Sequence record: PZ386973.1
Reading direction: 5' to 3' (one strand)
Source of the DNA: a phage
DNA: 64,000 nt
Positions within the stretch are counted from its first letter, which is position 1, and each line of letters begins with the position of its first letter. Below, one piece after another: positions 1,394 through 30,439 of the stretch. The translations under genes and the position numbers were made by a program. Below the pieces are notes generated by a model. The model was not told where the DNA came from. It ran no database searches and saw nothing but the letters and a program-made list of their open reading frames with translations.

Positions 1394-2016
1394 AACAATA
1401 CTCCTGTGTTGGAAATGAAATAAGTTTTCTTTAGGACTATTCAGAAAGAATAGAACAACTGTTACTGTCAATTTCTCAACAAATTAATCGCAAATACTGA
1501 AGTGGGGTGGCAACTTCCACTTTCACGCTGCGCTGCTGCCTCATTATACCGCACAAATCCTTGAGGATGGCCGCTAAGCCAGATTTGCTCACCTAATGCT
1601 TCATATACTAGCTCATACTAGATGCAATATAACTTACAGAATCACGTCTCGGTAGTTTTTCACTCCTCCCATCTCACTTCACAACCACCTCATACTAGGT
1701 TGCTTCGAGGCCTTACCAGGGTTCCTATGGGACGCAGATCGCTAAGTATTCTATTAACTATTTGTTTAAAAACTAACACGTAACAGTTAAAACAACCCTT
1801 AATGGGGCAGCCTAACTGTTCCGTATCGCGGATTGTAAACAAGAAAAATTAGCAAAATCAATTTTTACTAATGTCTCTCAATTCAATATAAATATTATAT
1901 CAAGATTTTGGGCATCCTGCAAGTAAAATTTTCCGGATGGTGCTATCATTGGTCTTGAGTACGGATAAAACCGAGCCAAAATGACTCGGTAATCAGAGTT
2001 CAGCTAATAAAAATCA

Positions 2017-2406
2017 TTAGTCATTTAGGCCAGGAACATAGATCCCAACACGGTTTAATTGTTCTTTAGCTTCTTTAAGAATATCTGGAGTGTACTCCCA
2101 AACATCATCTTCCACCTGTAAAAGATGGGGCGAACAACCATCATCCGGCACACGACATATGGCCAGACCACGTGGATGGAACAAAGAGAAATTTAGGGCA
2201 ACAATCAAGCCCATAGCAGACAATTCATTCCAATCCAATTCCCATTCCCCGGCATATCCAGACAGGAAAACACCAATGCAGGGATCATCTATTTGCTGCT
2301 CCGGAAAAGTGAAGGAGGCTTGTCTTACCCCCAACCAACGTTGTAGTAGCTTCTCCGCACGTCTCACCAAACTAGGGTCAATCTGACGCCAATATACTTG
2401 TTCCAT
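2017..2406 (-). CDS. hypothetical protein, paralog of 2416-2844
   Basis: Track ORF; shares an MGL(I/V)xALN...(I/V)PGL pattern with the adjacent ORF. Confidence 0.45.
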   Translation of the reverse strand: MEQVYWRQIDPSLVRRAEKLLQRWLGVRQASFTFPEQQIDDPCIGVFLSGYAGEWELDWNELSAMGLIVALNFSLFHPRGLAICRVPDDGCSPHLLQVEDDVWEYTPDILKEAKEQLNRVGIYVPGLND

Positions 2407-2415: not shown

Positions 2416-2844
2416 TTAAGCAGTTAAACCTGGGATCATATACCCGAAACGTCGAAGTTTCTGAATCCCCTCATTTACTTCTTCCGGTGAGTAAGACCAA
2501 CCATAACGTTCATTAACCTGAAAACCAGGGGATTCACTAGTCTTATAGTTAACAACGAGGCGATGCTTAGCAGGCATAAACAGCTTATAGTTTAACGCAA
2601 AAACTAAGCCCATTTCATCTAACTCTTTCCAGCCAACAATTTCTTCAAGACCCTCCTCTACCTGAACAATTAAACCAATACAGAGGGCCTCATCAATATC
2701 ATCTTTAAAAGCAAAGGAGATTTCGTTATTCTCACACCATATTTTCAAGGAATTAATAGCCTCATTATACAGGCTAGCCGGGAGAGTACGCCAAAAGTTA
2801 ACCAAAATTGGGTTAGCTTCTTTAGAGAATACATTATTGAACAT
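2416..2844 (-). CDS. hypothetical protein, paralog of 2017-2406
   Basis: Track ORF; tandem duplicate-like. Confidence 0.45.
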   Translation of the reverse strand: MFNNVFSKEANPILVNFWRTLPASLYNEAINSLKIWCENNEISFAFKDDIDEALCIGLIVQVEEGLEEIVGWKELDEMGLVFALNYKLFMPAKHRLVVNYKTSESPGFQVNERYGWSYSPEEVNEGIQKLRRFGYMIPGLTA

Positions 2845-2846: not shown

Positions 2847-3353
2847 TTACACCTTAAATTGTTGTAAGGATTTACACATTTCAAGATCCGGGCTAAATTC
2901 TAGCATATAGCTAACAGCTTTTAAATCTTGAAGATTTATCCCAGTCCTACCGTTGACTATAACTGTTGGATACTGATACATCATAGCACCAGCATCATCA
3001 AGCACACACCAATGTTTGAGCTTATGCTTTTCAACGAAGCGAAGAACAGAATTACCCCTAGATAATCCACCACCAGTAAAATCCGTTGTACCAAGAAAAC
3101 GATCGATAAGACCTAATCCGGTCATAATTCGAACGTTCTCCATTTCATTTTTAACAGAAAACCACGAAGATACCCCAACAATCATTATTGAAGAGGGACG
3201 AATAAAATCCTGAAAAGCCTTGAGAAGTGGCTTAAAAACCCAATCACTTCCGAAGAAGATCTTTTCATCATCCGGCGCATGGTGGTGCGAGATGCTCGAA
3301 TTGAGCACCCCATCAATATCTAGAAAAATAACTGGAGTATTACTTATTTCCAT
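2847..3353 (-). CDS. HAD-superfamily phosphatase-like protein
   Basis: N-terminal FLDIDGVL (DxDG motif I). Confidence 0.55.
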   Translation of the reverse strand: MEISNTPVIFLDIDGVLNSSISHHHAPDDEKIFFGSDWVFKPLLKAFQDFIRPSSIMIVGVSSWFSVKNEMENVRIMTGLGLIDRFLGTTDFTGGGLSRGNSVLRFVEKHKLKHWCVLDDAGAMMYQYPTVIVNGRTGINLQDLKAVSYMLEFSPDLEMCKSLQQFKV

Positions 3354-3522
3354 TTTTGTTCCTTTCTAAGAACGTATCATACTCAACCGTATCAACATAT
3401 ATGACACCATAGTCATCGGATTTATAGTCCATTTCCCACAGCTCACAGCGATAACACCAACTACCATCCGCCCATACAAATATATCATCGGGATGTGTAT
3501 ATACAGATTTAACTATAGACAT
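3340..3522 (-). CDS. hypothetical small protein
   Basis: Track ORF, overlaps its neighbours in operon fashion. Confidence 0.35.
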   Translation of the reverse strand: MSIVKSVYTHPDDIFVWADGSWCYRCELWEMDYKSDDYGVIYVDTVEYDTFLERNKNGNK

Positions 3523-4337
3523 ATTTGTTTCCCTGGCATATAAGGTCTACCCTCTAAATGAGCTTCCACACGAGCAATAAAATCAGGATCACTGAAAGCA
3601 TCTACCGCACCTTTACTCCAGTAAGGGACCCCACGTTCTTCCAGCTGGTACATCTCACTACGAGTCATACCTTGATAGCCGGGCTCCGCTGCTAGAGCAC
3701 TATCATAGTAGTTAACAACCATAAGTTTCGCAGCAGTCAAATTAAGAACAGGAAATAATTCCCAGTAGAAGTTAATTACTTGGTTAGAGCAACCAACTAC
3801 AATAATCATATCTTGACTGGTAATACTGTCAAAAACATTATACATTTCTGCGTATGCAGGAGCATGCTCTCCAAAGAAGATTACATTAGGTTTAGCCCAT
3901 TTATAATCATCCGGATCGATAGAACTGTATCCTACATCAATAATCCGTTTATTGCTACTATTGTATCTATCAGCTACAACAACCTCTTTTAAATATCCGT
4001 GAATGTGCAGAATGTCACTATGTGGAACGCCAGCACGCTCAATAAGGTCATCAACGTTGGTAGTCAAGTTTACTACTTGACCAGGGTATTGTTTATGCCA
4101 TTCACCAATACGCAAATGCGCAAGATTGGGTTCGACAGTTTTTAGCTCTTCACGACGCTTGTTATAAAACATATGGGTTTTATGGTAAAAATTACCACGA
4201 AAGGCATGAATATTACATACTTCTTCTAGATCATAATCATCCCACAATGCTTTACCACTAGCAGTATCAGTACGAAAAGCTCGTACACCACTTTCAACGC
4301 TCAAACCTGCACCGCTAATAATAATTACTCTACGCAT
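3513..4337 (-). CDS. Sir2-like NAD-binding protein
   Basis: GAGLSVESGVRAFR (sirtuin GAGIS..SG motif), TTNVDDL (TQNID-like), HIHG catalytic His; no Zn-ribbon cysteines seen. Confidence 0.6.
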   Translation of the reverse strand: MRRVIIISGAGLSVESGVRAFRTDTASGKALWDDYDLEEVCNIHAFRGNFYHKTHMFYNKRREELKTVEPNLAHLRIGEWHKQYPGQVVNLTTNVDDLIERAGVPHSDILHIHGYLKEVVVADRYNSSNKRIIDVGYSSIDPDDYKWAKPNVIFFGEHAPAYAEMYNVFDSITSQDMIIVVGCSNQVINFYWELFPVLNLTAAKLMVVNYYDSALAAEPGYQGMTRSEMYQLEERGVPYWSKGAVDAFSDPDFIARVEAHLEGRPYMPGKQICL

Positions 4338-4551
4338 TTTTCACCTGTTCTCTGAAGTTTTGCCCAATGCTGTCTAATAGCTCAGCTAATTCTTTATTGC
4401 CTTTCTCCATTAAGGTATTAGCAATAACTTCTAGCATAGTAGCACAGGATTCAACACCATCCTTATAGCCAGTTTCCCACTGCTGCATTAATGCATTTTC
4501 CAAAGCGGCATTTAAACCATTATCTGGTAGCATCGGCTTCGAGAATGCCAT
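4330..4551 (-). CDS. hypothetical protein
   Basis: Track ORF. Confidence 0.4.
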   Translation of the reverse strand: MAFSKPMLPDNGLNAALENALMQQWETGYKDGVESCATMLEVIANTLMEKGNKELAELLDSIGQNFREQVKNA

Positions 4552-4723
4552 AAAGTTTCTCCTCTAGTTCCATAACACGATTTTCATAAGAGGCACGCAA
4601 CTTTTCAATTGCCAGCGCACGCACTGTAACCTCATTAGAATTAATAGCTAATTGGGCCAGGTCTTCTGTTTCCATACGTCCATTGTAAATTAAGCGATAT
4701 TTAAGATGTTTTACGTTTTTCAT
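4520..4723 (-). CDS. hypothetical protein
   Basis: Track ORF. Confidence 0.4.
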   Translation of the reverse strand: MKNVKHLKYRLIYNGRMETEDLAQLAINSNEVTVRALAIEKLRASYENRVMELEEKLYGILEADATR

Positions 4724-4732
4724 TCTTGTTCC

Positions 4733-5014
4733 TTAGTTCTGTACTGTAAATTTATTCTTATCACAGTAAGCATAATAATACCCATACATACGATAAATTT
4801 TCACAGCCTTAGTAGACCCCTTCGATTCTTCATAATCAATCCAGAGCCACTTGTCTTTACCTACATAATGTACCCGAAACTTCTTAACTTTCTTATCATT
4901 CCATGTTGCAACAACACGACGATAATCAAATCCGCCCAACCAATCTAGAGCCTTACGTTCTTCACTAGGCTCTCCAAGATGGGAGACATCTACTTTAGGA
5001 AGCAATTCGCTCAT
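4733..5014 (-). CDS. hypothetical protein
   Basis: Track ORF. Confidence 0.4.
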   Translation of the reverse strand: MSELLPKVDVSHLGEPSEERKALDWLGGFDYRRVVATWNDKKVKKFRVHYVGKDKWLWIDYEESKGSTKAVKIYRMYGYYYAYCDKNKFTVQN

Positions 5015-6991: not shown

Positions 6992-7097
6992 ACCCTCCTT
7001 CTCTAACTAAGACTACTATTATAACTCATTCGAGGGCGGATGTCAACAATATTTTACTATAAAGTTCTGTAACATGATCTGAGTCAAAAAATTTTAT

Positions 7098-7126
7098 TTG
7101 CCAACCTCTATTAAAAATTGTATAAT
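7098..7126 (+). promoter_or_regulatory. sigma70-type promoter (TTGCCA-N17-TATAAT)
   Basis: Hexamers with 17-nt spacer upstream of the phoH-like gene. Confidence 0.5.
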
Positions 7127-21380: not shown

Positions 21381-21452
21381 CGGGGTGTAGTCTAAGGGAG
21401 AGGCAGGAGTCTTCTAAATTCCTTTATGCAGGTTCGAATCCTGTCACCTCGG
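21381..21452 (+). tRNA. tRNA-Arg (anticodon TCT)
   Basis: 7-bp acceptor, T-arm GCAGG-TTCGAAT-CCTGT, anticodon loop CTTCTAA, encoded CCA. Confidence 0.7.
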
Positions 21453-21489
21453 CCAATTTTATTAACTGTAACTAAAACAAAGGAAATAT

Positions 21490-22437
21490 ATGTTTGCTAC
21501 TAAAAATATGAAAGAACTGACTTCTGAGCAGAAAGTAATTCGTACTATTAAACGTTGGGGTATTGGTGCTGTAGTTGGTTTAGCAGGTTTAATCCTAGCT
21601 TTTAATTCATATACTATTGTTTCTGATGGTACGGTTAAAACCCAAACATTCCTGGGTAAAGTAGACCCTAATCCAGTATTGCCAGGTTTCCATCTTGTAA
21701 ACCCGTTTGCATCTTTCGATACTTTTAGTACAAAAGATATTGCTGTAAAATTAGATAAACTTCAGGTTCCTAGTCAGGATAAGTTTAAATCCACTGTTGA
21801 CCTGACTGTTATGTTGCAGTTTGATGGTTCTAAGGCACCTATTAACCGTATTAATGCGGGTACTCAGGATCAGGCACTAGACAAGTATGTAACTGAAAAA
21901 TTACTATCTACTATTCGTGAGTTTGGTAAGTCTGTACCTAAAGCACAAGATTTGTTTGATGCTAAAATTCAGGCTCAATTGCAAACTGCAATTCAACAGG
22001 AAGTTGAAGAGTATGCACGCCCATATGGTTACACAGTTAAGCAGGTGTTCCTTCAGGATATTACTTTGCCACCGGTAATCATGGAACAGGTACAGAATAC
22101 CAAAGTTCGTGAAGAGCAAGTTAATGCTGCGAAAGCTGAACTGGCTCGTGTTGAACAGGAAGCACAGCAAAAAGTTAAACAAGCAGAAGCAGATCGTGAA
22201 GCTCGCAACAACCAAGCTATTGCTAATGAACGTGACGCAGATGCTAAACTGTACGCAGCTAAGAAAGAAGCTGAAGCTAACGCCGCATTGCAACGTACCA
22301 TTACTCCTGAGATGATTCGCTGGAAGCAACTGGAAGTTGAAATGATTCGTGCTCAGAAATACCAAGGTGGTGTACCACAGACGGTAGTTGGTACTGGTTA
22401 TGATGGCCAGATGATTATGGATATGCGTAACAAGTAA
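21490..22437 (+). CDS. SPFH/band-7 (prohibitin-like) membrane protein
   Basis: N-terminal TM helix, central SPFH-like region, Ala/Glu/Gln-rich coiled coil. Confidence 0.65.
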   Translation: MFATKNMKELTSEQKVIRTIKRWGIGAVVGLAGLILAFNSYTIVSDGTVKTQTFLGKVDPNPVLPGFHLVNPFASFDTFSTKDIAVKLDKLQVPSQDKFKSTVDLTVMLQFDGSKAPINRINAGTQDQALDKYVTEKLLSTIREFGKSVPKAQDLFDAKIQAQLQTAIQQEVEEYARPYGYTVKQVFLQDITLPPVIMEQVQNTKVREEQVNAAKAELARVEQEAQQKVKQAEADREARNNQAIANERDADAKLYAAKKEAEANAALQRTITPEMIRWKQLEVEMIRAQKYQGGVPQTVVGTGYDGQMIMDMRNK

Positions 22438-22514
22438 TAGTTACACGTAATCTTCGAACCAAGCCTGCGTTTCCCTCGAGAGCGCGGGCTTTTCTGTATT
22501 TAAGGCAAAAGAAA

Positions 22515-22549
22515 AAGCCCCTTACCTTTCGGCAGGGGCTTTTGTTTTT
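22515..22549. terminator. bidirectional terminator
   Basis: GCCCCTTACCTTTCGGCAGGGGC flanked by A-run and T-run between convergent genes. Confidence 0.6.
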
Positions 22550-22756
22550 GGTTTAGAACCACACTCTCGGTATACAGCAACCACCCATACGGGAGGCCAA
22601 TCTTGACTGAAAATCTACTCTAGGGGGCAGGATAAGAGTAGGCTTAAAGGCAAACGGATTGAACGCCGGTATTTGCGTAAACATTGCTGGAGAGCAACAA
22701 CGTGCTACAGGCATTGGGCAGCACGAAACAGATTTTCTGCAACACATAATTCCTCC

Positions 22757-23173
22757 TTAGGAGTTATTACCGCTATTTTGAGCTTTTGCAATTTGGCTTT
22801 GGCAGAAGCTATTAAACTTACCCATAAGTGATACAAGCTGCCTCCCATCCTCTGTCTTTGCGAAGTCTTCGAAAAGGGCTAGTACTGCCTGTCCTTCCGC
22901 AGAAACCTGCGGTTGTTGGGTTTGCTGCTGAACTTGCTGCTGAGGCACCTGTTGCTGCATTTGTTGAGGCATTTGCGACTGCCCGCTCATTTGCTGCATC
23001 ATTTGCATAGGACTTACACTTCCAGGGTTTTGCTGGAGTTGTTGCTGCATCTGTTGCGCTTCTGCTAAACGCTGTTGCAATTGTTGTAAGTAGGGGTTAT
23101 CCAGACCCGGAATGGGCTGCTGGGAGCCCATACTTTGATTAAGTCCGTTATTTACAAAACCATATTTACTCAT
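22757..23173 (-). CDS. Gln-rich low-complexity protein
   Basis: Track ORF; GGGGAGGAG RBS; QQLQQ repeats. Confidence 0.5.
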   Translation of the reverse strand: MSKYGFVNNGLNQSMGSQQPIPGLDNPYLQQLQQRLAEAQQMQQQLQQNPGSVSPMQMMQQMSGQSQMPQQMQQQVPQQQVQQQTQQPQVSAEGQAVLALFEDFAKTEDGRQLVSLMGKFNSFCQSQIAKAQNSGNNS

Positions 23174-23194
23174 AATGGGCTCCTCCCCTTAATA

Positions 23195-24181
23195 TTAAGC
23201 CGGCAGTTTAGCCTGCAGACCAGCCAGAGTCTGAGTGATCGCACCAAGACTTACAGCGATTTGATTAATTACCTGACCATTAGCACCGTTACCCGCAGCG
23301 ATTGCCTCACGTAGGCGACATGCATCTAACTCATCCTGAATACGCGCAGTAGTTACACCAGCGATCGCAGTCTGAAGTTCACAGCAACATTCAGAGATCT
23401 GACGTTCCAGAGAATTCTGGTTAGCACACATCTGAGCCTGAACAGCGGCAAACTGGTTATTAGTTTGTAAAGTCTGCTGGAAAGCGATCTGTGCAGAATC
23501 AAACTTATCTTGTGCACGAGCTATCTGGTTAGCTGCGAAAGATTGATCAATCTGGCGAGAAAGATCGAACTGACCCTGAATAACGTTGCGAGTTTCCTGG
23601 CAGATCTGATTAGACAGATTAGCACCTGTACCATAGATCGTAGTTAGTACAGACTGAGTATCACGGCTCTGGTTTTGGGATGTCTGGCTAAAACCATTGT
23701 TAACTGCGCTTAAAACAGCTCCAGTACCCTGGTTAGCTTCTGTACGAGTAGTGTTAATAGCTGCTAGAATACTAGCGGTATCTTGGTTCTGAAGTACTGC
23801 ATCAACTGCGGTACCATCACCAACTACACCACGTCCACCGAATCCACCGAAACCACCGAATCCGCCTGTTAATAGAGCACCGATTAGGATAGCTCCGAAT
23901 AGTCCCATACCTTCACCACCGAAAGCACCTGCGTTTGCTGGGTAACCACCCAGTAGGCCAGGGAGGCCACTAGTAAATACGTTTACTGGTTCTTGCATTT
24001 TATGTTTTCCATATTTATGACAATGTTCATCATCGTCATCTTCTTCATCATCGTGTTCACGATGCTTTTCTTCGTAGGCTCTGACCTTCTCCCACTTTTT
24101 CTTATCTGATTCCTCGTGACGGTGCAGTTCTGCTGCAACGCTAGCGACGGTCTCAGGACTCTTAGCTACTTCTTCTGTCAT
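23195..24181 (-). CDS. acidic, Gly-zipper membrane protein, Q/N/S/T-rich
   Basis: ATG at 24181 after AGGAGG; DDEEDDDDEH stretch; GLFGAILIGALLTGGFGGFGGFGG segment. Confidence 0.5.
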   Translation of the reverse strand: MTEEVAKSPETVASVAAELHRHEESDKKKWEKVRAYEEKHREHDDEEDDDDEHCHKYGKHKMQEPVNVFTSGLPGLLGGYPANAGAFGGEGMGLFGAILIGALLTGGFGGFGGFGGRGVVGDGTAVDAVLQNQDTASILAAINTTRTEANQGTGAVLSAVNNGFSQTSQNQSRDTQSVLTTIYGTGANLSNQICQETRNVIQGQFDLSRQIDQSFAANQIARAQDKFDSAQIAFQQTLQTNNQFAAVQAQMCANQNSLERQISECCCELQTAIAGVTTARIQDELDACRLREAIAAGNGANGQVINQIAVSLGAITQTLAGLQAKLPA

Positions 24182-24243
24182 TTTTTGACACCTCCTAGTA
24201 TATAGAAAATGTGTGTCTCTTTGATCACTCATCCATAACATAT

Positions 24244-24272
24244 ACTTTACACTACCCCAGCGAAAATGTCAA
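24244..24272 (-). promoter_or_regulatory. minus-strand promoter (TTGACA-N17-TAAAGT)
   Basis: Different hexamer type from the plus-strand early promoter family. Confidence 0.4.
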
Positions 24273-24388
24273 GGGGTCTTTAAAAATTGCCCCCGGATTT
24301 TTAGTGGGGTCACAAATTTTGGTCCTCACCACTTATATGCTACCCTTAAGTGCCCTATGATTTTCCTCTAAAAAGTTAAAAAATTTGA

Positions 24389-24417
24389 TTGCTTGAATGC
24401 TAAATTCTCTGTATAAT
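24389..24417 (+). promoter_or_regulatory. early promoter module
   Basis: TTGCTT-N17-TATAAT. Confidence 0.55.
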
Positions 24418-24447
24418 GTATCTATAAATTTGAGAGAGGAACCAAAT

Positions 24448-24966
24448 ATGAATGTTGACGAGCTAACACAGCACCTCTTATCTAGAGGATTTGATACAGA
24501 TAAATATCATTGCTGGTTAAGTCCGGAAGGATGGCTAACAGTCCCGTTGTATGATTTCTCTGGGATGTTGAGGGGCTATCAGACGTATAATCCTTCTGCT
24601 CCAAAAGGTCATGGTAAGTGCCCCTTTGAGGCTAAATATTTTACCTGCTCTACTACACAGTGTGTATGGGGGCTAGAAACTCTCAATGGAGATGAAAAAG
24701 TAGTATTGATCGCTGAATCTGTATTTAAGGCAGTTGCGTTACACAACGCTGGTTATCCAGCCCTGGCAATGTTGGGTTCTTCTCCAGGAAAAGCGTTATT
24801 AAAGCAACTGAAATTATTACCTTTTAAATTGGTAGCTGTCGGAGATAATGATCCTGCGGGTGAAAAATTTGCTAGAAAATTAAACGGCTTTGTTTCTCCC
24901 GTAGATGTGGATGAGATGTCTACCGAAAACTTGAAAAATTTTCTTGCTATGAAGCTAAATTTCTAA
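24448..24966 (+). CDS. Toprim-domain protein
   Basis: LIAESVFKAVAL...VAVGDNDPAGEKFA (E plus DxD Toprim signature); ATG 24448 after the promoter module. Confidence 0.5.
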   Translation: MNVDELTQHLLSRGFDTDKYHCWLSPEGWLTVPLYDFSGMLRGYQTYNPSAPKGHGKCPFEAKYFTCSTTQCVWGLETLNGDEKVVLIAESVFKAVALHNAGYPALAMLGSSPGKALLKQLKLLPFKLVAVGDNDPAGEKFARKLNGFVSPVDVDEMSTENLKNFLAMKLNF

Positions 24967-24972
24967 TATAAT
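24944..24972 (+). promoter_or_regulatory. early promoter overlapping the 3' end of the Toprim gene
   Basis: TTGCTA-N17-TATAAT; -35 lies inside the coding sequence; drives the tRNAs at 24988. Confidence 0.45.
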
Positions 24973-24987
24973 ATATCTTATAAATTC

Positions 24988-25078
24988 GGAAGATTAACCC
25001 TAAAGGTAAGGGAGCTGTTTGCTAAACAGCCAGTAACTGTGGAAACATGGTGTGCCAGTTCGAGTCTGGCATCTTCCT
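24988..25078 (+). tRNA. tRNA-Ser (anticodon GCT)
   Basis: Acceptor GGAAGAT/ATCTTCC, anticodon loop TTGCTAA, long variable arm, T-arm GCCAG-TTCGAGT-CTGGC. Confidence 0.7.
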
Positions 25079-25087
25079 CCAGATTTT

Positions 25088-25162
25088 GGTTCTCAAGCTC
25101 ATATGGTATGAGCACCCGGCTCATAACCGGAAGGTACGTAGGTTCGAATCCTCGGGGAGCCA
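25088..25162 (+). tRNA. tRNA with CAT anticodon (Met or Ile2)
   Basis: Acceptor GGTTCTC/GGGAGCC with G-U pairs, D-stem GCTC/GAGC, loop CTCATAA; T-stem pairing weak. Confidence 0.55.
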
Positions 25163-25383
25163 CCAACTTAATTAGGGGATTACAAGTGGAATTATACATA
25201 GTTTATGTTGTGTTTATTCAAGATAGAGAATACCCGGATGAATATAAAAAAGGATATAGGTTAGCCAGAGCTACCTCTGAGGCCCAAGCTATGGATAAAG
25301 TGGCAGATTATATGATTATGGTAGAAAACGTATACTATATCGACTCCCTTGAAGCCTCAAAAGTAATTGACTAAGGAGACTAT

Positions 25384-25569
25384 ATGTCTAAGTTTCAAGA
25401 ACTCAAGCAAGAGCTAGAAGAATGTGCCTGCCCTGAATGTAGGGGGATTGGTGAAAGTTCTGATGCAGAAGCAGGAGATACTTTTTGCAATATCTGGATT
25501 TGTTCAAATTGCAACGGTACAGGTATTAATCCTAACTGCGGTATTTCCCTAGATATTGAACGAGGATAA
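25384..25569 (+). CDS. small Cys-rich (zinc-ribbon-like) protein
   Basis: CACPEC...CSNCNG. Confidence 0.4.
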   Translation: MSKFQELKQELEECACPECRGIGESSDAEAGDTFCNIWICSNCNGTGINPNCGISLDIERG

Positions 25570-25671
25570 TACCTGTGAAACTAAAAGATTATTATATTGG
25601 TTGGTTTGTGGGACTAGTAGTAGGATTTTCACTAGGCTATAATATGTATCAACTAATAAACTGATTACATG

Positions 25672-25745
25672 GGGGGTGTAATCGAATTGGCATAGGTACT
25701 GGACTTAAAATTCAGGTTTTGTGGGTTCGAATCCCACCACCCCTA
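25672..25745 (+). tRNA. tRNA, anticodon read as TAA (Leu-type) on a class I body
   Basis: Acceptor GGGGGTG/CACCCCT, T-arm GTGGG-TTCGAAT-CCCAC, loop CTTAAAA, A73, short variable loop. Confidence 0.55.
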
Positions 25746-25763
25746 CCAAATTAAGGAATTAAG

Positions 25764-25931
25764 ATGTATAGACCTCCTCCGCCACCAACACGTCGTTCTA
25801 GGGAAGTCATCCTTATGGAATTGACGAAAAACTTCAAGGCGACTCTTGAGGATAGAGACTTAGGCACAGATGAAGACGTTGATTTCATTTGTAAACTATT
25901 AAAAATGAAACTGGAGAAACAACATGGCTAA
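25764..25931 (+). CDS. hypothetical small protein
   Basis: ATG after AAGGA; 55 codons. Confidence 0.4.
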   Translation: MYRPPPPPTRRSREVILMELTKNFKATLEDRDLGTDEDVDFICKLLKMKLEKQHG

Positions 25932-26130
25932 TCCTGAAATTACCATGCAACGACTCATGACTAAAGGCATGATAGCCGAGGCAGGTATTGAACAAGAAGT
26001 AAAAGGCTATTACGAACAGATTAAGACTATTATAGACTCTGCTAAAAACACCGGAGAAAAAGAACACGGTGCAGCAATTATGGCTATAACTCTTATTAGT
26101 CTAGACTTGGCCGAAGAATCTGGAGTTTAG
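25924..26130 (+). CDS. hypothetical protein
   Basis: Track ORF. Confidence 0.45.
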   Translation: MANPEITMQRLMTKGMIAEAGIEQEVKGYYEQIKTIIDSAKNTGEKEHGAAIMAITLISLDLAEESGV

Positions 26131-26160
26131 CTCCTCCAAACAGAATTTTTAAAAATGTAC

Positions 26161-26190
26161 TTGCTTTTTGTCTTAAATTTCTGATATAAT
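26161..26190 (+). promoter_or_regulatory. early promoter module
   Basis: TTGCTT-N18-TATAAT. Confidence 0.5.
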
Positions 26191-26220
26191 AGTCATATAA
26201 ATTGATGAAGGAGTTAACTA

Positions 26221-26496
26221 ATGCAAAATCGTGTTGTAGCAACTGGTATTGAAAGTGCAATCTGTAAATCCTGGGAAGGCTGGGAAGGTGAGATTGAATG
26301 GCTTTATTTCTACGATGTAGAACTCCTGCCGGAAGTTAAAGCTAAATGCGTTGAAGCTGGTATGGCTCCAGATGCAAAAGCTGATATTGATATTTCAATG
26401 TCTGAACTTAAAGGTCGTGTAGTTACCGTTAGTAATGAGGGGGAAGAAGTTTTTGAACTTCCGTTCTCCTTAGCTGTCACTCCTAAGTTCGACTAA
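26221..26496 (+). CDS. hypothetical protein
   Basis: Track ORF. Confidence 0.45.
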   Translation: MQNRVVATGIESAICKSWEGWEGEIEWLYFYDVELLPEVKAKCVEAGMAPDAKADIDISMSELKGRVVTVSNEGEEVFELPFSLAVTPKFD

Positions 26497-26532
26497 CTAA
26501 TACAGCACTGAGCAAGTTCTTCAAAATCTGAC

Positions 26533-26561
26533 TTGCTCAGTGCCCTAAAACTTGATATAAT
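26533..26561 (+). promoter_or_regulatory. early promoter module
   Basis: TTGCTC-N17-TATAAT inside a hairpin-forming region. Confidence 0.5.
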
Positions 26562-26624
26562 AGTTATCTAATTTGGAAACATATTTAAAAGTGTTTAAAC
26601 AAGTATTTGAATGCTTCTAAATAT

Positions 26625-26709
26625 GGGCGTTTATTCCGTAAGTGGTAGCGGAGGGGATTGTAAATCCCTGGTCATTGCGACTCGAGTGGTTCGACTCCAT
26701 TAACGCCCA
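26625..26709 (+). tRNA. tRNA-Tyr (anticodon GTA)
   Basis: Acceptor GGGCGTT/AACGCCC, loop TTGTAAA, long variable arm, encoded CCA. Confidence 0.75.
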
Positions 26710-26720
26710 CCAAATTTAAT

Positions 26721-26792
26721 GCACCTATCGTCTAATGGCTAGGACATCAGGATTTCAATCTGAGAATCGGAGTTCAATTCTCCGTGGGTGTA
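26721..26792 (+). tRNA. tRNA-Glu (anticodon TTC)
   Basis: Full cloverleaf traced (72 nt); loop ATTTCAA; T-arm CGGAG-TTCAATT-CTCCG. Confidence 0.7.
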
Positions 26793-26802
26793 CCAATTTC
26801 TG

Positions 26803-26877
26803 CATTCCTAGAGTGTTACTGGACAGCATGTCGGTCTCCAAAACCGTACGGTCTAGGTTCGAGTCCTAGTGGGTTTG
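26803..26877 (+). tRNA. tRNA-like element (possible Trp, CCA anticodon)
   Basis: T-arm CTAGG-TTCGAGT-CCTAG and loop CTCCAAA present; acceptor pairing not confirmed. Confidence 0.35.
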
Positions 26878-26886
26878 CCAAAATTT

Positions 26887-26958
26887 GCACCTTTAGCTGA
26901 GATGGATTAGCGCTTGCCTGAAGAGCTTGAGAGGTTCGTTCGATTCGAACAGGGTGCA
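26887..26958 (+). tRNA. tRNA-Phe (anticodon GAA)
   Basis: Acceptor GCACCTT/AGGGTGC, D-stem GCTG/TAGC, loop CTGAAGA; two anticodon-stem mismatches. Confidence 0.55.
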
Positions 26959-26978
26959 CCAATTTGAAGGAGATGCTG

Positions 26979-27251
26979 ATGCATCCTGAAAACTTCTTTA
27001 TTTACTGCGCGGATAAGTCGCTGAAACGTAGAATTAACAAAGTCTATCATTATCGTGCTAGTCAACAGCCTTATATATACGCTTTTGACGGTGATCACAT
27101 TCCACTAGAACAATTATCCTGTGATTACATGATATTGAAGAACTTTGACGAGACAAAGATCTCAAGCGTTCATAATCGACAGAATCCATTAACGTGGAAA
27201 TATAAGAAGAAAAAGAAAGGCATCAAATTCTTAAAAAATGTAGTTGCTTAG
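26979..27251 (+). CDS. hypothetical protein
   Basis: ATG with AAGGAG 6 nt upstream. Confidence 0.4.
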   Translation: MHPENFFIYCADKSLKRRINKVYHYRASQQPYIYAFDGDHIPLEQLSCDYMILKNFDETKISSVHNRQNPLTWKYKKKKKGIKFLKNVVA

Positions 27252-27272
27252 TTTCCAAAAGTTCTGTATAAT
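27244..27272 (+). promoter_or_regulatory. early promoter module
   Basis: TTGCTT-N17-TATAAT. Confidence 0.55.
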
Positions 27273-27320
27273 AATTACATAAATTGAACTGGAGAAGCAA
27301 CATGACAGAACAAGATAAAT

Positions 27321-27393
27321 CGACCGTTGGCTGAATGGCTTAGGCGAAGGATTGCAAATCCTTTTTATGTGAGTTCAAATCTCATGCGGTCGT
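27321..27393 (+). tRNA. tRNA-Cys (anticodon GCA)
   Basis: Acceptor CGACCGT/GCGGTCG, anticodon stem AAGGA/TCCTT, loop TTGCAAA. Confidence 0.7.
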
Positions 27394-27548
27394 CCAATTT
27401 GCTGAAAGAATTGTTAAATCAATTCAGGCACGCGTAGGAACACTGTCTCCGTAATTGAAAGATGAGACACGGTTTGGAGAGGTATGCCGCTACACGCTAC
27501 GGTGCTAACTCCGTCTAGGTGAAAATCCTAGTCAGCAATATAAATTTA

Positions 27549-27628
27549 GGGTCGTTAGCCAAGCGGTTTGGCGGTGGACTGTTAATCCATGTCGAAAGAC
27601 AACGTAGGTTCGAATCCTACACGGCCCG
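27549..27628 (+). tRNA. tRNA with GTT anticodon and 13-nt variable arm
   Basis: Acceptor GGGTCGT/ACGGCCC, D-stem GCCA/TGGC, anticodon stem GTGGA/TCCAT, loop CTGTTAA. Confidence 0.55.
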
Positions 27629-27733
27629 CCAAATTCTGTGTAGAGTTAAGTAAACCGGTAGCCAACCAGCTATCATTGCTGACATCGAATTCAGCCACAG
27701 ATACCATTTTCATTAATAACTGAGGAAACAAGC

Positions 27734-27919
27734 ATGTCCAAGAATGTAATTGCGCAGCTAGAAGTTCATCGTGATAGCACTATCAATAATATTGAAGTTG
27801 AGAAGAAATACATCGAAGAACTTAAACATGATATACTAGTAAGTCTCAACCGTCTTAATGTACGAAAAGAGTTTCTTAAAGAACTTAATGCAGCTATTGA
27901 AAAACTCAAAGCTGAGTAA
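27734..27919 (+). CDS. hypothetical small protein
   Basis: Track ORF. Confidence 0.4.
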   Translation: MSKNVIAQLEVHRDSTINNIEVEKKYIEELKHDILVSLNRLNVRKEFLKELNAAIEKLKAE

Positions 27920-27927
27920 ATAAATTA

Positions 27928-28001
27928 TGCGACCGGGGCTGGCTTGGTAATGGTACTCCCCTGTCACGGGAGAGAATGTGGGTTCAAATCCCATCGGTCG
28001 C
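27928..28001 (+). tRNA. tRNA-Asp (anticodon GTC)
   Basis: Acceptor GCGACCG/CGGTCGC, anticodon stem CTCCC/GGGAG, loop CTGTCAC. Confidence 0.75.
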
Positions 28002-28022
28002 GCCAAATAAGGTAGGTTAGCT

Positions 28023-28181
28023 ATGGAACGTAGGGAGTTTACTCCAGAAGAGATAGAGCAGATAAAAGAATCTGCTATGAAAAATGCTAGAATATCTCTG
28101 TCACTGGAAGGTATCATTATTAGTGACGTAAACTTTGAAAAAATCAAAGCCATAGCTGATGAACTGGAAAAAGTAATTTAA
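28023..28181 (+). CDS. hypothetical small protein
   Basis: ATG 28023; 52 codons. Confidence 0.4.
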   Translation: MERREFTPEEIEQIKESAMKNARISLSLEGIIISDVNFEKIKAIADELEKVI

Positions 28182-28182
28182 T

Positions 28183-28255
28183 ACATCCATAGCTCAATGG
28201 TTAGAGCTACCGCCTCTTAAGCGGAGGGTTCTAGGTTCAAGTCCTAGTGGGTGTA
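28183..28255 (+). tRNA. tRNA-Lys (anticodon CTT)
   Basis: Acceptor ACATCCA/TGGGTGT, D-stem GCTC/GAGC, loop CTCTTAA. Confidence 0.65.
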
Positions 28256-28284
28256 CCAAATTAAACTAGCACGAGAAATATGCT

Positions 28285-28632
28285 ATGATTAATGCTAAAG
28301 AAGAGTTGTTACTTGCCCTAAAGAATACTAAGTCTGAAGTTAAGTGTATTAAGATAGAATTCGGTTATTATGGGGATAAAGAAGTTTGGGTATTACCCGT
28401 AGGTTATACAGAAAAAGATATTGAAGATTTTCTAGATAATCTAGACTTTAAATATGATTCTGGTTTCGGCGGACAACTGCTTTATGGTAACGTATGGTTT
28501 ACTGATGGAACTTGGTTAGAACGTGGTGAATATGATGGTTCTGAATGGTGGGAATATAAGACTACACCAGCAATCCCAGAAGAATGCCGAACAATTAATG
28601 GTGAAGTAGATCGTACTTTACTATTAAATTAA
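28285..28632 (+). CDS. hypothetical protein
   Basis: Track ORF. Confidence 0.45.
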   Translation: MINAKEELLLALKNTKSEVKCIKIEFGYYGDKEVWVLPVGYTEKDIEDFLDNLDFKYDSGFGGQLLYGNVWFTDGTWLERGEYDGSEWWEYKTTPAIPEECRTINGEVDRTLLLN

Positions 28633-28640
28633 CAAAATTT

Positions 28641-28741
28641 CAGTGCAGAACACGGAGCTAGCAATTCGGAAGTGCTGACTCATGATAAGCTGCCTATGTA
28701 CTTGCGAAGCGGTCGTGTCCAAGACTCGGACTCTTGCACTG
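28641..28741 (+). ncRNA. candidate structured RNA closed by a long-range stem
   Basis: 5' CAGTGCA (28641-28647) pairs with 3' TGCACTG (28735-28741); no ORF. Confidence 0.3.
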
Positions 28742-28754
28742 AAAACAATCAAAC

Positions 28755-28875
28755 ATTCTAGCGTGGTTGATGGGGAAACCAGCTTGGCTAGGGCAGAAGC
28801 TCGTTCGATTCGAGTGGAAGAATGGTTCTCGTAAGTCCGCACAAGTGATAACAGGTTCGAGTCCTGTCTAGAATG
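28755..28875 (+). tRNA. tRNA-like element with two tandem T-arm hairpins
   Basis: ATTCTAG...CTAGAAT outer pairing; GCTCG-TTCGATT-CGAGT and ACAGG-TTCGAGT-CCTGT; too long for a canonical tRNA. Confidence 0.3.
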
Positions 28876-28884
28876 ACACTATAA

Positions 28885-29010
28885 AGTTTACTTATTGAGT
28901 AGGTTCCGATAGATCGGCGGGTCTATTCTGGCATTTAAGAGAGGTCTCGCAAACTTCTTTGTCAGCCGTGGGGTTCATAGCCTCCAGGTGGCCTACACAA
29001 TAAGTAAATT
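28885..29010 (+). ncRNA. candidate structured RNA closed by a 12-13 bp long-range stem
   Basis: AGTTTACTTATTG (28885-28897) pairs with CAATAAGTAAATT (28998-29010). Confidence 0.3.
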
Positions 29011-29024
29011 TATTAAAAATTCAT

Positions 29025-29053
29025 TTGCTATTCTGCTTAATTATCTGTATAAT
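29025..29053 (+). promoter_or_regulatory. early promoter module
   Basis: AAAAATTCATTTGCTA...TATAAT. Confidence 0.55.
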
Positions 29054-29085
29054 ATATTTTATAAAGTGAAGAGAAGGAAAGCAAA

Positions 29086-29244
29086 ATGAAACACAAGATA
29101 GCTCAAGTTTTTATGGCATTATGGTGTATGCCAATAGCTATAACAGCATTTAATCTAGATACTCTTACTATAGAAGAAAAATGTATCGGATTAGTTAGCG
29201 GCTTTAGTATGCTGGGCTTATCTTTGCTGTGGTTAAAGAAATAA
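29086..29244 (+). CDS. small hydrophobic membrane protein
   Basis: ATG after AGGAAAG; 52 codons with two hydrophobic segments; the overlapping minus-strand track ORF was rejected. Confidence 0.45.
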   Translation: MKHKIAQVFMALWCMPIAITAFNLDTLTIEEKCIGLVSGFSMLGLSLLWLKK

Positions 29245-29248
29245 TATT

Positions 29249-29323
29249 CTCCGTGTAGCTCAGTTTGGCCAGAGCGTTTCGTTTGGGGCGATAGGGTCGG
29301 GGGTTCAAATCCTCCCACGGAGA
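29249..29323 (+). tRNA. tRNA-Pro (anticodon TGG)
   Basis: Acceptor CTCCGTG/CACGGAG, D-arm GCTC...GAGC, loop TTTGGGG. Confidence 0.65.
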
Positions 29324-29333
29324 CCAAACAATT

Positions 29334-29407
29334 GCGGGTTAGATCTCTGGTAGAGATCGCTAGTCTCATAAGCTAGAAAGAGGTAGGTTCGATTCCTGCA
29401 CCCGCTT
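29334..29407 (+). tRNA. tRNA with CAT anticodon (Met, fMet or Ile2)
   Basis: T-arm GTAGG-TTCGATT-CCTGC, loop CTCATAA; acceptor end pairing ambiguous at position 1. Confidence 0.5.
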
Positions 29408-29430
29408 CCATTTTAATAGAGGATTTCGAA

Positions 29431-29598
29431 ATGAAAGTATTTCGATTAGTAGTAAGTGATAAACGTTTAGGTAAGAATACATCAAAATCCTTACTCGCTC
29501 ATTACGGTAAAAATTGGGATGAAGTAATGGTAGAGTTTAGTACTAATCACCCTTACCTGAAAGTTCACTCTATTAAAGAAGTATACAATGGTTACTAA
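29431..29598 (+). CDS. hypothetical small protein
   Basis: ATG 29431; 55 codons. Confidence 0.4.
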   Translation: MKVFRLVVSDKRLGKNTSKSLLAHYGKNWDEVMVEFSTNHPYLKVHSIKEVYNGY

Positions 29599-29599
29599 T

Positions 29600-29675
29600 A
29601 GATCGCTAGCTCAATAGGTTTAGTAGCATCCGACTTTTAATCGGAAGGTTCTGGGTTCAAGTCCCAGGCGATCTA
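29600..29675 (+). tRNA. tRNA-Lys (anticodon TTT)
   Basis: Acceptor AGATCGC/GCGATCT, anticodon stem TCCGA/TCGGA, loop CTTTTAA. Confidence 0.75.
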
Positions 29676-29696
29676 CCAATTTCAAGAAAAACGCAG

Positions 29697-30039: not shown

Positions 30040-30047
30040 CCAAATAC

Positions 30048-30431: not shown

Positions 30432-30439
30432 CCAAATCT

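What the first reader, a model, noticed from the sequence alone, without database searches (positions are those of the whole stretch)
3513..4337. Phage-encoded Sir2-like protein
GAGLS..SG, TTNVDDL and HG motifs indicate a sirtuin-like NAD-binding fold without an obvious zinc ribbon. In bacteria Sir2 domains act as deacylases or as NAD-depleting defence effectors. A phage copy could modify host proteins or manipulate NAD pools. It sits next to a HAD phosphatase and two tandem paralogs of unknown function.
Basis: partly seen in the sequence, partly recalled or inferred. Interest (0 to 1): 0.6.

Follow-up and report, generated by a model that had tools for sequence, protein, structure and literature searches.

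The report
Zinc-less sirtuin gene of T5-like phage
This is the conserved Sir2/CobB-like, NAD-using enzyme gene of T5-like phages (ortholog of T5 gene T5.102): it is real and looks catalytically intact, it is already annotated in hundreds of phage genomes, and its job has never been tested, with a role in repairing cut RNA as the leading guess.

Summary
Window 3513-4337 (minus strand) is a 274-aa ORF that matches Pfam SIR2 (E 3.5e-24). Its AlphaFold model (pLDDT 87) superposes on E. coli CobB (Foldseek E 5.5e-17). All NAD-binding and catalytic residues are present, as is the class-III YxxR pair. The zinc-ribbon segment has no cysteine, and TQN is replaced by TTN. The downstream HAD phosphatase and the two tandem paralogs (DUF7415) are also real.

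The window is a Tequintavirus (T5-like) genome and the gene is the ortholog of T5.102. Over 1000 phage records encode a homolog. Two features were already published. The zinc-less state was noted for Vibrio-phage relatives, which also listed T5 (PMC5107563, 2016). The sirtuin + 'Swiss-army-knife' HAD neighbourhood of this phage group was described with a Tpt1/KptA-like RNA 2'-phosphate-removal hypothesis (PMC9503650, 2022).

I reproduced and extended that context evidence: relatives lie beside RNA ligase 1, cREC, a kinase, Thg1/RlaP or HAD_SAK_2 in several phage lineages. T5-like phages, however, carry no RNA ligase. The conserved acyl-lysine tunnel also keeps a CobB-like protein deacylase as a close rival. 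I found no experimental data.

Verdict: correct reading, already known, function untested. Interest is modest.

The parts
3513..4337 (-). Sirtuin gene (274 aa), ortholog of T5.102. Zinc-less, CobB/SIRT5-like. Key residues: GAGLS 9-13, S16 G17, F21 R22, Y58/R61 (YxxR), TTNVD 92-96, H113 G114, KPNVIFFGE 149-157, GCS 182-184.
4341..4346 (-). Shine-Dalgarno-like AGGTGA, three bases upstream of the sirtuin ATG. The start overlaps the stop of the upstream 73-aa ORF (4330-4551).
   Evidence: read directly from the sequence.
3340..3522 (-). 60-aa ORF of unknown function (PHROG 5116). It overlaps the sirtuin stop and the HAD start. Conserved next to the sirtuin in Epseptimavirus and Sugarlandvirus.
2847..3353 (-). 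HAD-superfamily phosphatase (168 aa), HAD_SAK_2 family, ortholog of T5.105. Motif I DIDGV (residues 12-16) and motif IV DD (129-130) are present. Widely mislabelled 'Sir2' through PHROG 18062.
2416..2844 (-). DUF7415 protein a (142 aa), ortholog of T5.106. Confident AlphaFold model with no fold match among solved structures.
2017..2406 (-). DUF7415 protein b (129 aa), ortholog of T5.107. Tandem paralog of the preceding gene, 32% identical.
4330..5014 (-). Three small upstream ORFs of unknown function (93, 67 and 73 aa; PHROGs 7953, 5236, 5827), in the same orientation and close-packed with the sirtuin gene.
1967..1990 (-). Hairpin ACCGAG-TCATTTTGG-CTCGGT followed by TTTT, 27 bases after the last DUF7415 gene. 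Same sequence as the putative rho-independent terminator annotated after T5.107 in phage T5.
5082..5106 (-). Terminator-like hairpin just after nrdD. It marks the upstream edge of the 8-gene block that contains the sirtuin. T5 annotates a terminator and then a promoter at this position.

Best explanation
SHOWN. The ORF encodes a single-domain, zinc-less sirtuin of the CobB/SIRT5 (class III-like) type, with every NAD-binding and catalytic residue intact. It belongs to a clade restricted to large virulent phages. It sits in a close-packed, same-strand block of eight early genes, together with a HAD_SAK_2 phosphatase and two DUF7415 proteins.

INFERRED CHEMISTRY. The enzyme binds NAD+. An oxyanion on the substrate attacks C1'' of the nicotinamide ribose and expels nicotinamide. 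His113 then activates the ribose 2''-OH to resolve the adduct. Y58 and R61 hold a negatively charged group on the substrate.

INFERRED SUBSTRATE (my commitment, about 0.4). The acceptor is an RNA-end phosphate rather than an acyl-lysine. On this view the enzyme acts like Tpt1/KptA. It removes a 2'-phosphate left on cleaved or rejoined RNA and releases ADP-ribose 1'',2''-cyclic phosphate. The RNA is most likely tRNA cut by host anticodon nucleases. The adjacent HAD phosphatase would trim terminal phosphates or the ADP-ribose phosphate by-product. This is the model of Iyer et al. 2022. Sealing would have to be done by a host ligase, because T5-like phages encode no RNA ligase.
For: Identity and intact active site:
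- Pfam SIR2, E 3.5e-24.
- AlphaFold model with pLDDT 87.4 and pTM 0.86.
- Foldseek top hits are CobB 1s5p (E 5.5e-17, TM 0.83 on the target), then Sir2Af1 and SIRT5.
- G9 A10 G11 S13 S16 G17 F21 R22 N94 D96 H113 G114 are invariant in 30 phage homologs. They align with the same residues of CobB.
- Y58/R61 align with CobB Y92/R95. They are kept in 40 and 34, respectively, of 41 zinc-less relatives.

Context linking the clade to RNA-end metabolism:
- Orthologs 56-63% identical in V5/Mydo-like myophages lie in the order Metallophos, RNA_lig_T4_1, cREC_REC, AAA_33 kinase, SIR2. Erwinia-phage-like relatives (48-50% identical) keep this order without a detected cREC. About 11 of 59 IMG/VR loci have the ligase-containing arrangement, and two short loci carry fragments of it.
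- 28 of 59 loci pair the sirtuin with the HAD.
- An unrelated 86-kb contig (L065) again has HAD_SAK_2, 2.4 kb away.
- A 278-kb phage (L067) has RlaP and Thg1 within about 3 kb.
- A 607-kb phage (L068) has RNA_lig_T4_1 about 1.2 kb upstream.

The published analysis reaches the same conclusion for this phage group, typified by phage SP15 (PMC9503650). The window's HAD is 95% identical to SP15's.

The window carries 22 tRNA genes. From my own knowledge, T5-type phages are known targets of tRNA-cleaving defences.
Against: - No RNA ligase or polynucleotide kinase is detectable in the 64-kb window. None of the 40 sampled rows (of 667 records) in a phage-wide Rnl1 search is an obvious T5-like phage. 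T5-like phages therefore lack the sealing step.
- The HAD is missing next to the sirtuin in Sugarlandvirus (phage Shiner) and in Serratia phage Kamaji.
- HAD_SAK_2 occurs without a sirtuin in T4-like phages.
- About 15 of 59 loci matched none of my probes. A further locus, L003, also shows no RNA-repair neighbours.
- The V5-like cassette may be one ancestral arrangement kept by synteny, so the number of independent contexts is small.
- The hydrophobic residues that line the acyl-lysine tunnel in CobB (F21, V95, V152, F155, V187) are conserved. That fits a lysine substrate at least as well as an RNA end.
- Every biochemically characterised PF02146 enzyme with this active site is a protein deacylase or ADP-ribosyltransferase (my own knowledge).
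- I found no experiment on any member of the phage clade.
Confidence: 0.4

Rival explanations
1. Canonical NAD+-dependent protein lysine deacylase, like CobB and SIRT5. During early infection it would remove acetyl or, given YxxR, succinyl or malonyl groups from host or phage proteins to retune metabolism or activate enzymes.
For: - The closest characterised relatives by sequence and by fold are the deacylases CobB, Sir2Af1 and SIRT5.
- The best NCBIfam matches are all 'NAD-dependent protein deacylase' models.
- All catalytic residues, the FGE loop, the hydrophobic tunnel residues and the class-III YxxR carboxylate-binding pair are conserved.
- A sirtuin next to NAMPT in L066 fits any nicotinamide-releasing sirtuin.
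- This was proposed for the Vibrio-phage homologs (PMC5107563).
Against: - Scores fall far below every NCBIfam CobB cut-off (90.7 bits against 320).
- The zinc module cysteines are lost. The Gln of TQN is replaced by Thr.
- The Pro of CobB's VYP motif, called strictly conserved in PMC5107563, appears to be Asn (VIN), by my manual alignment to the CobB sequence as I recall it.
- This model does not explain the recurrent placement beside RNA ligase, kinase, cREC, Thg1/RlaP or HAD_SAK_2.
- The host already has CobB.
Confidence: 0.35
2. NAD+ glycohydrolase or macromolecular ADP-ribosyltransferase, used for host takeover or counter-defence. Examples would be modifying a host protein or nucleic-acid end, or reshaping the pools of NAD-derived signals.
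For: - Sirtuin folds can act as NADases or ADP-ribosyltransferases (reviewed in PMC9503650).
- In one phage group the gene lies about 4 kb from an Acb2/Tad1-hairpin anti-defence gene.
- The sirtuin allele is only 51% identical between phages whose flanking genes are 89-98% identical. Such a pattern is common for conflict genes.
Against: - There is no match to any PADLOC defence SIR2 model and no SIR2_2-type signature.
- There is no partner macro domain or sensor domain.
- T5-like phages rely on an NAD+-dependent DNA ligase, so wholesale NAD+ destruction would harm the phage itself.
- The catalytic His and the YxxR pair argue for a defined acceptor rather than water.
Confidence: 0.15
3. A catalytically silent binder or decoy that only sequesters NAD+, ADP-ribose derivatives or a host factor.
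For: Loss of the zinc ribbon, which in canonical sirtuins is needed for a stable small domain (my own knowledge). Phage 'sponge' proteins are a common strategy.
Against: Strict invariance of the catalytic His, Asn and Asp and of the whole NAD pocket across homologs down to about 50% identity. The model predicts that the three-stranded small-domain sheet persists without zinc.
Confidence: 0.05

Closest known systems
Phage T5 gene T5.102 ('Sir2-like', annotated since the 2005 T5 genome) and its orthologs in Tequintavirus and Epseptimavirus
   Same: Same gene. The T5 locus is 92% identical (L027). It has the same order of genes between nrdD and the replication-origin-binding protein, and the same terminator hairpin. 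It is annotated as a SIR2-family deacetylase in many of the 448 matching records.
   Different: Nothing material. The window's closest records are Salmonella and Escherichia T5-like phages at about 95% DNA identity.
Sirtuin + Swiss-army-knife HAD neighbourhood of 'Escherichia phage SP15'-type phages (Iyer, Burroughs, Anantharaman & Aravind 2022, PMC9503650, section 3.7.3)
   Same: The window has exactly this arrangement. Its HAD is 95% identical to SP15's and its DUF7415 is 91% identical. The hypothesis adopted here is theirs.
   Different: In the text I retrieved, the paper does not mention DUF7415. Here DUF7415 turns out to be a more constant neighbour of the sirtuin across Demerecviridae than the HAD is.
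E. coli CobB (PDB 1s5p, 6rxj), a class III sirtuin deacylase
   Same: Best sequence and fold match. Shared features are GAGxS, FR, N/D, the catalytic His, the FGE loop and the Y92/R95-type YxxR pair.
   Different: Only about 25% identical. Below all NCBIfam CobB cut-offs. No zinc-binding cysteines. TQN replaced by TTN. Has an extra C-terminal insertion (residues about 211-233) that is specific to part of the T5-like group.
Tpt1/KptA RNA 2'-phosphotransferase
   Same: Proposed functional analogue. Both use NAD+, and in both an oxyanion attack on C1'' is followed by attack of the 2''-OH to give a 1'',2''-cyclic product (established Tpt1 and sirtuin mechanisms; my own knowledge).
   Different: Unrelated fold (ADP-ribosyltransferase fold versus sirtuin Rossmann fold). 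No sequence relationship. The activity has not been tested for any sirtuin.
Sir2/CobB of large Vibrio phages (KVP40, phi-St2, phi-Grn1; PMC5107563)
   Same: Same phage clade: 35-41% identical. Also reported to lack zinc ligands. Linked to phage NAD+ salvage, as in locus L066 here.
   Different: Different genomic context (NAD+ synthesis genes rather than HAD and DUF7415). The authors proposed deacetylation of acetyl-CoA synthetase.
Defence-associated SIR2 NADases (ThsA, DSR1/2, SIR2-HerA, SIR2-pAgo)
   Same: Sirtuin-superfamily Rossmann domain that uses NAD+.
   Different: No PADLOC hit. The Pfam match is to SIR2 (PF02146) alone. Single-domain protein with no sensor or partner. Encoded by a virulent phage rather than a host defence island.

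Membership tests
Sirtuin / Sir2 family (Pfam PF02146) | Match to the family profile above the curated threshold over the full domain | tested here: met
   86.2 bits against a cut-off of 24, E 3.5e-24, profile positions 1-178 of 180.
Sirtuin / Sir2 family (Pfam PF02146) | Rossmann domain plus small domain, superposable on solved sirtuins | tested here: met
   AlphaFold model pLDDT 87.4. Foldseek hits CobB at E 5.5e-17 with TM 0.83 (target-normalised). 272 PDB chains at E <= 0.001, and all 50 listed are sirtuins.
Sirtuin / Sir2 family (Pfam PF02146) | NAD-pocket and catalytic residues: GAGxS, SG, FR, (T)QN(I/V)D Asn and Asp, HG histidine | tested here: met
   All are present and invariant in 30 homologs and aligned to CobB. 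The one departure is Gln to Thr at position 93 (TTN).
Sirtuin / Sir2 family (Pfam PF02146) | Cys4 zinc ribbon in the small domain | tested here: not met
   No cysteine in residues 115-148. No conserved cysteine in this segment in any of the 30 aligned homologs. Among 146 nearest representatives, 41 combine T93 with fewer than 3 Cys, against 72 with Q93 and 3 or more Cys. This is a known variant state rather than grounds for exclusion from the superfamily.
Sirtuin / Sir2 family (Pfam PF02146) | NAD+-dependent deacylase or ADP-ribosyl-transfer activity | not testable with these tools
   Needs biochemistry. I found no published assay of any member of the phage clade.
Class III sirtuins (CobB / SIRT5) | YxxR pair that binds a distal negative charge on the acyl group | tested here: met
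   Y58 and R61 align with CobB Y92 and R95. Both are invariant in the phage alignment.
Class III sirtuins (CobB / SIRT5) | Scores as a CobB equivalog (NCBIfam NF040867 or the PRK00481 models) | tested here: not met
   90.7 bits against a cut-off of 320. The best model scores 100.5 against 243. The protein is therefore CobB-like and not a CobB ortholog.
Defence-type SIR2 NADases (ThsA, DSR, SIR2-HerA, SIR2-pAgo) | Match to defence SIR2 models and fusion or adjacency to a sensor or partner (SLOG, HerA, pAgo, long C-terminal domain) | tested here: not met
   No PADLOC SIR2 hit. The protein is a 274-aa single domain. Its neighbours are a HAD phosphatase, DUF7415 proteins and small ORFs.
Macro-linked class M sirtuins (SirTM) | Adjacent macro-domain gene | tested here: not met
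   No macro domain among the eight flanking ORFs scanned.
Phage sirtuin-centred RNA-repair neighbourhoods (Iyer et al. 2022, type 3) | Sirtuin of the phage clade in a conserved neighbourhood with a Swiss-army-knife HAD phosphatase | tested here: met
   HAD_SAK_2 (E 2e-20) lies 160 bases downstream of the sirtuin stop, with one small ORF between them. The pairing is seen in 28 of 59 IMG/VR loci and again in the unrelated contig L065.
Phage sirtuin-centred RNA-repair neighbourhoods (Iyer et al. 2022, type 3) | A complete repair pathway (end-healing kinase plus RNA ligase) encoded by the phage | tested here: not met
   No Rnl1, AAA_33 kinase or Metallophos homolog of the V5-like cassette in the 64-kb window. 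None is annotated in the matching region of phage oldekolle.
Tpt1/KptA RNA 2'-phosphotransferases (functional analogy only) | Tpt1/KptA family fold and sequence | tested here: not met
   The only Pfam hit is SIR2, and the fold is a sirtuin Rossmann fold. The claim is 'may work like', not 'is a member of'.
Tpt1/KptA RNA 2'-phosphotransferases (functional analogy only) | NAD+-dependent removal of an RNA 2'-phosphate, releasing ADP-ribose 1'',2''-cyclic phosphate | not testable with these tools
   Requires an enzyme assay.

The most novel reading that the evidence does not exclude
The zinc-less phage sirtuin clade would be the first sirtuin-fold enzyme whose physiological acceptor is a nucleic-acid phosphate (Tpt1-like RNA 2'-phosphate removal or RNA-end ADP-ribosylation). 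In T5-like phages it would work with the SAK-type HAD phosphatase and the fold-orphan DUF7415 proteins as a ligase-independent module. That module would heal or protect tRNA cut by host anticodon-nuclease defences. The idea itself is published as a prediction. What would be new is the demonstration, and the involvement of DUF7415.
Probability: 0.3. Interest if true: 0.75.

Novelty: already known. Interest (0 to 1): 0.3.

Why it matters
Sirtuins are among the most studied NAD+-consuming enzymes, and every characterised one acts on proteins. A whole clade confined to large virulent phages has an intact active site, has lost the zinc module, and has no tested function. More than 1000 phage records encode a homolog, including the model phage T5 and many therapeutic-candidate Salmonella and E. 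coli phages.

If the RNA-repair prediction is right, it would add a new substrate class for the sirtuin fold. It would also add a new phage answer to tRNA-cleaving immunity. If the enzyme is a deacylase, it would be a rare case of a phage rewriting host lysine acylation.

T5 is genetically tractable, so either outcome can be tested directly. As a genome-scan finding it adds little beyond existing annotation and a published comparative-genomics hypothesis.

Tried and rejected
- Defence-type SIR2 NADase: rejected. No PADLOC hit, and the only Pfam match is to PF02146.
- Sequence search of the HAD against the PDB: no hit even at E <= 10.
- Phage-encoded RNA ligase or kinase in the window: none.
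- HAD_SAK_2 as an obligate sirtuin partner: rejected. T4-like Proteus and Aeromonas phages have it without a sirtuin; the 262-aa ORF upstream in Pm5461 has no SIR2 match.
- Experimental literature: searches on T5, Tequintavirus, sirtuin and RNA repair, plus two phage functional-genomics papers, gave no data on this gene.
- Electrostatics or docking on the model to separate peptide from RNA substrates: not possible, because the model coordinates are not exposed to the scripting tool.
Full report
**1. The observation**

The six-frame ORF list shows an ORF at exactly 3513-4337 on the minus strand: 274 aa with an ATG start. AGGTGA lies three bases upstream of the ATG. The start overlaps the stop of the preceding small ORF.

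GAGLS is residues 9-13, SG is 16-17, TTNVDDL is 92-98 and HG is 113-114. The stretch between HG and KPNVIFFGE (residues 115-148) carries the four zinc-binding cysteines in canonical sirtuins. Here it has no cysteine.

The match is not a chance resemblance.
- Pfam SIR2 (PF02146) scores 86.2 bits against a cut-off of 24 (E 3.5e-24) over 178 of 180 profile positions.
- PHROG 2162 'Sir2' scores E 5e-120.
- The best solved-structure relative by sequence is E. coli CobB (1s5p, E 7e-18).

The neighbours are as described.
- 2847-3353(-) is a HAD_SAK_2 phosphatase (E 2e-20).
- 2416-2844(-) and 2017-2406(-) both carry DUF7415. They are 32% identical to each other.

**2. Where the window comes from**

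Region 2000-5100 matches 448 phage records. The best matches are T5-like Salmonella and Escherichia phages at about 95% identity. Many of these records already annotate the gene as 'NAD-dependent protein deacetylase of SIR2 family' or 'Sir2-like protein'.

The annotated relative oldekolle is a Tequintavirus. It has the same gene order:
- replication-origin-binding protein,
- two hypothetical proteins and then a third one (the DUF7415 pair and the HAD),
- the Sir2-like gene,
- three small ORFs,
- nrdD, phoH, nrdA, nrdB, dihydrofolate reductase and thymidylate synthase.

In phage T5 itself the gene is T5.102. The HAD is T5.105 and the two paralogs are T5.106 and T5.107.

The T5 record annotates a terminator and then a promoter after nrdD, and a terminator after T5.107. 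The window has a terminator-like hairpin after nrdD at 5106-5082. It also has the identical T5.107-terminator hairpin at 1990-1967. So the sirtuin sits in a compact, same-strand block of eight genes with overlapping or abutting start and stop codons. The window also carries 22 tRNA genes.

**3. The protein**

An alignment of 30 homologs down to about 54% identity (A1) shows these residues are invariant:
- G9 A10 G11 S13 S16 G17 F21 R22 (the NAD-binding loop);
- T92 T93 N94 V95 D96;
- H113 G114;
- K149 P150, F154 F155 E157;
- G182 S184.

The alignment to CobB printed by HMMER and a 146-sequence MAFFT alignment place these residues on the corresponding CobB residues. That includes the catalytic histidine.

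Y58 and R61 align with CobB Y92 and R95. I checked the numbering against the CobB mutant names A76G, Y92A and I131C in the PDB titles. From my own knowledge of SIRT5 and CobB, this is the class-III pair that binds the distal carboxylate of succinyl- or malonyl-lysine.

The AlphaFold model is confident (mean pLDDT 87.4, pTM 0.86). It keeps a three-stranded sheet where the zinc ribbon would be. Foldseek against the PDB returns CobB first (E 5.5e-17, target-normalised TM 0.83). Sir2Af1, SIRT5, Sir2Tm and SIRT2 follow.

The protein is not a CobB ortholog, because it falls far below all NCBIfam cut-offs (90.7 bits against 320). It matches no defence SIR2 model in PADLOC.

I looked at the 146 nearest 50%-identity representatives. 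This is a length-filtered subset of the 150 listed from the 1.8-billion-protein library search, plus six homologs, the query and CobB. In this set the substitution TQN to TTN goes with loss of the cysteines:
- 41 have T93 and fewer than 3 Cys;
- 72 have Q93 and 3 or more Cys;
- 22 show one of the two mixed T/Q combinations.

The zinc-less state is therefore a clade character and not a defect of this one sequence.

**4. Distribution and published knowledge**

A translated search finds homologs in 1009 phage records. These include T5-like siphophages, V5-like and Mydo-like myophages, Phapecoctavirus-type phages, KVP40-like Vibrio phages and several jumbo phages.

Two papers already cover the essentials.
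- Skliros et al. 2016 (PMC5107563) modelled the Vibrio-phage homolog on CobB. They noted the missing zinc ligands and listed T5 among the carriers.
[quoted passage not shown] They described three conserved neighbourhoods. [quoted passage not shown] They proposed that these sirtuins act like KptA, removing 2'-phosphates from cleaved RNA.

The window's HAD is 95% identical to SP15's, and its DUF7415 protein is 91% identical. The finding is therefore that published case.

I found no experimental work on any member. Searches on T5, Tequintavirus, sirtuin and RNA repair, and two phage functional-genomics papers, gave nothing on this gene.

**5. Independent test of the context argument**

Orthologs 57-59% identical in 133-146 kb myophage genomes or contigs (Raoultella phage Ro1 and metagenomic relatives) lie in this order: Metallophos, RNA_lig_T4_1, cREC_REC, AAA_33 kinase, SIR2, then a DNA-ligase-like gene.

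I fetched 59 IMG/VR loci and probed them with tblastn. The results were:
- 28 loci pair the sirtuin with the HAD and DUF7415. These are 23 Tequintavirus loci including T5, 4 Epseptimavirus-like loci and 1 other.
- 3 loci have DUF7415 only.
- About 11 loci have the RNA-ligase cassette. The cREC gene was not detected in the three Erwinia-phage-like loci. Two short loci (L034, L059) carry fragments of the cassette.
- About 15 loci matched none of my probes.

Pfam scans of the more distant loci added further cases:
- L065, an unrelated 86-kb contig with a zinc-less sirtuin: HAD_SAK_2 lies 2.4 kb away.
- L066: a NAMPT gene directly upstream.
- L067, a 278-kb phage: RlaP and Thg1 within about 3 kb.
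- L068, a 607-kb phage: RNA_lig_T4_1 about 1.2 kb upstream.

So the link to RNA-end enzymes recurs with different partners in different lineages. That is more than simple synteny would give.

Several results count against the argument.
- T5-like phages have no RNA ligase or kinase in the window. None of the 40 sampled rows from a phage-wide Rnl1 search is an obvious T5-like phage.
- Within Demerecviridae the HAD is absent next to the sirtuin in Sugarlandvirus (phage Shiner) and in Serratia phage Kamaji. DUF7415 is present in both.
- HAD_SAK_2 occurs without a sirtuin in T4-like phages.
- One phage group shows no such neighbours at all.

**6. The DUF7415 neighbours**

**7. Mechanism and verdict**

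What is shown:
- a catalytically complete, zinc-less, CobB/SIRT5-like sirtuin;
- membership of a phage-restricted clade;
- location in an early-gene block with a HAD phosphatase.

What is inferred:
- The enzyme cleaves NAD+ with attack by a substrate oxyanion.
- His113 assists resolution of the adduct.
- The acceptor remains uncertain.

I commit, at about 0.4, to the RNA-end (Tpt1/KptA-like 2'-phosphate removal) model, because of the recurrent context. The canonical protein deacylase is a close rival at about 0.35. It is favoured by homology, by the conserved hydrophobic lysine tunnel and by the lack of a phage ligase. An NADase or ADP-ribosyltransferase role (about 0.15) and a silent binder (about 0.05) are less likely.

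But the feature is a long-annotated gene with a published functional hypothesis, so the novelty is 'already known' and the interest is modest. The direct experiments listed under next steps would settle the substrate question.

Noticed in passing
[not shown]
   Followed up: partly
window 2847-3353 (-); records: The HAD_SAK_2 phosphatase is labelled 'Sir2 (NAD-dependent deacetylase)' in many RefSeq and PHROG-based annotations, including T5.105. The cause is that PHROG 18062 carries that name while matching the C-terminal half of the HAD (E 6e-58). This looks like a propagated mis-annotation that yields 'Sir2 x2' in these genomes.
   Followed up: partly
L048, L049, L054, L055 versus the window; L015, L016, L018, L019, L024, L025: Strong mosaicism. 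Epseptimavirus-like loci have a sirtuin only 51% identical to the window's, while the flanking HAD is 89% identical and, in three of the four, NrdD is 98% identical. Separately, NrdD exists as two allelic types (about 60% versus about 99% identity) among Tequintavirus loci whose sirtuins are all 93-97% identical. Gene-sized allelic replacement therefore seems frequent in this region.
   Followed up: no
window 7018-7126: Back-to-back sigma-70 promoter matches between nrdD and phoH. One is a perfect TTGACA-17-TATAAT on the minus strand (7046-7018). The other is an 11-of-12 match on the plus strand (7098-7126). T5 annotates promoters at the same place.
   Followed up: no
window 21381-32911: A cluster of 22 tRNA genes on the plus strand. 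It includes two tRNA-Lys, two tRNA-Gln, two tRNA-Leu and two tRNA-Met genes.
   Followed up: no
L066 6057-8705; L067 8001-12642; L068 5582-8708: Distant sirtuin relatives sit next to NAMPT (nicotinamide salvage). In a 278-kb phage the neighbours are Nuc_deoxyri_tr2, RlaP and Thg1. In a 607-kb phage the neighbour is an Rnl1-type RNA ligase, with a HAD-like and a P-loop ORF nearby that gave no Pfam hit.
   Followed up: partly
L003 1940-2215: In a 152-kb E. coli myophage (ECO340P2) the sirtuin has no RNA-repair neighbours. An Acb2/Tad1-hairpin (anti-CBASS/anti-Thoeris sponge-like) gene lies about 4 kb upstream.
   Followed up: no
window 3340-3522 (-): A 60-aa Trp/Cys-containing ORF (PHROG 5116) is wedged between the sirtuin and the HAD, with overlapping stop and start codons. 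It is conserved at 45-53% identity in Epseptimavirus and Sugarlandvirus. Function unknown.
   Followed up: no
records: T5-like sequences are deposited under unlikely names or hosts. Examples are 'Campylobacter phage C13/C7', 'Listeria phage LM 4-11-1', and partial proteins labelled Enterococcus faecalis or Salmonella enterica. These are probably contamination or mislabelling in the public records.
   Followed up: no
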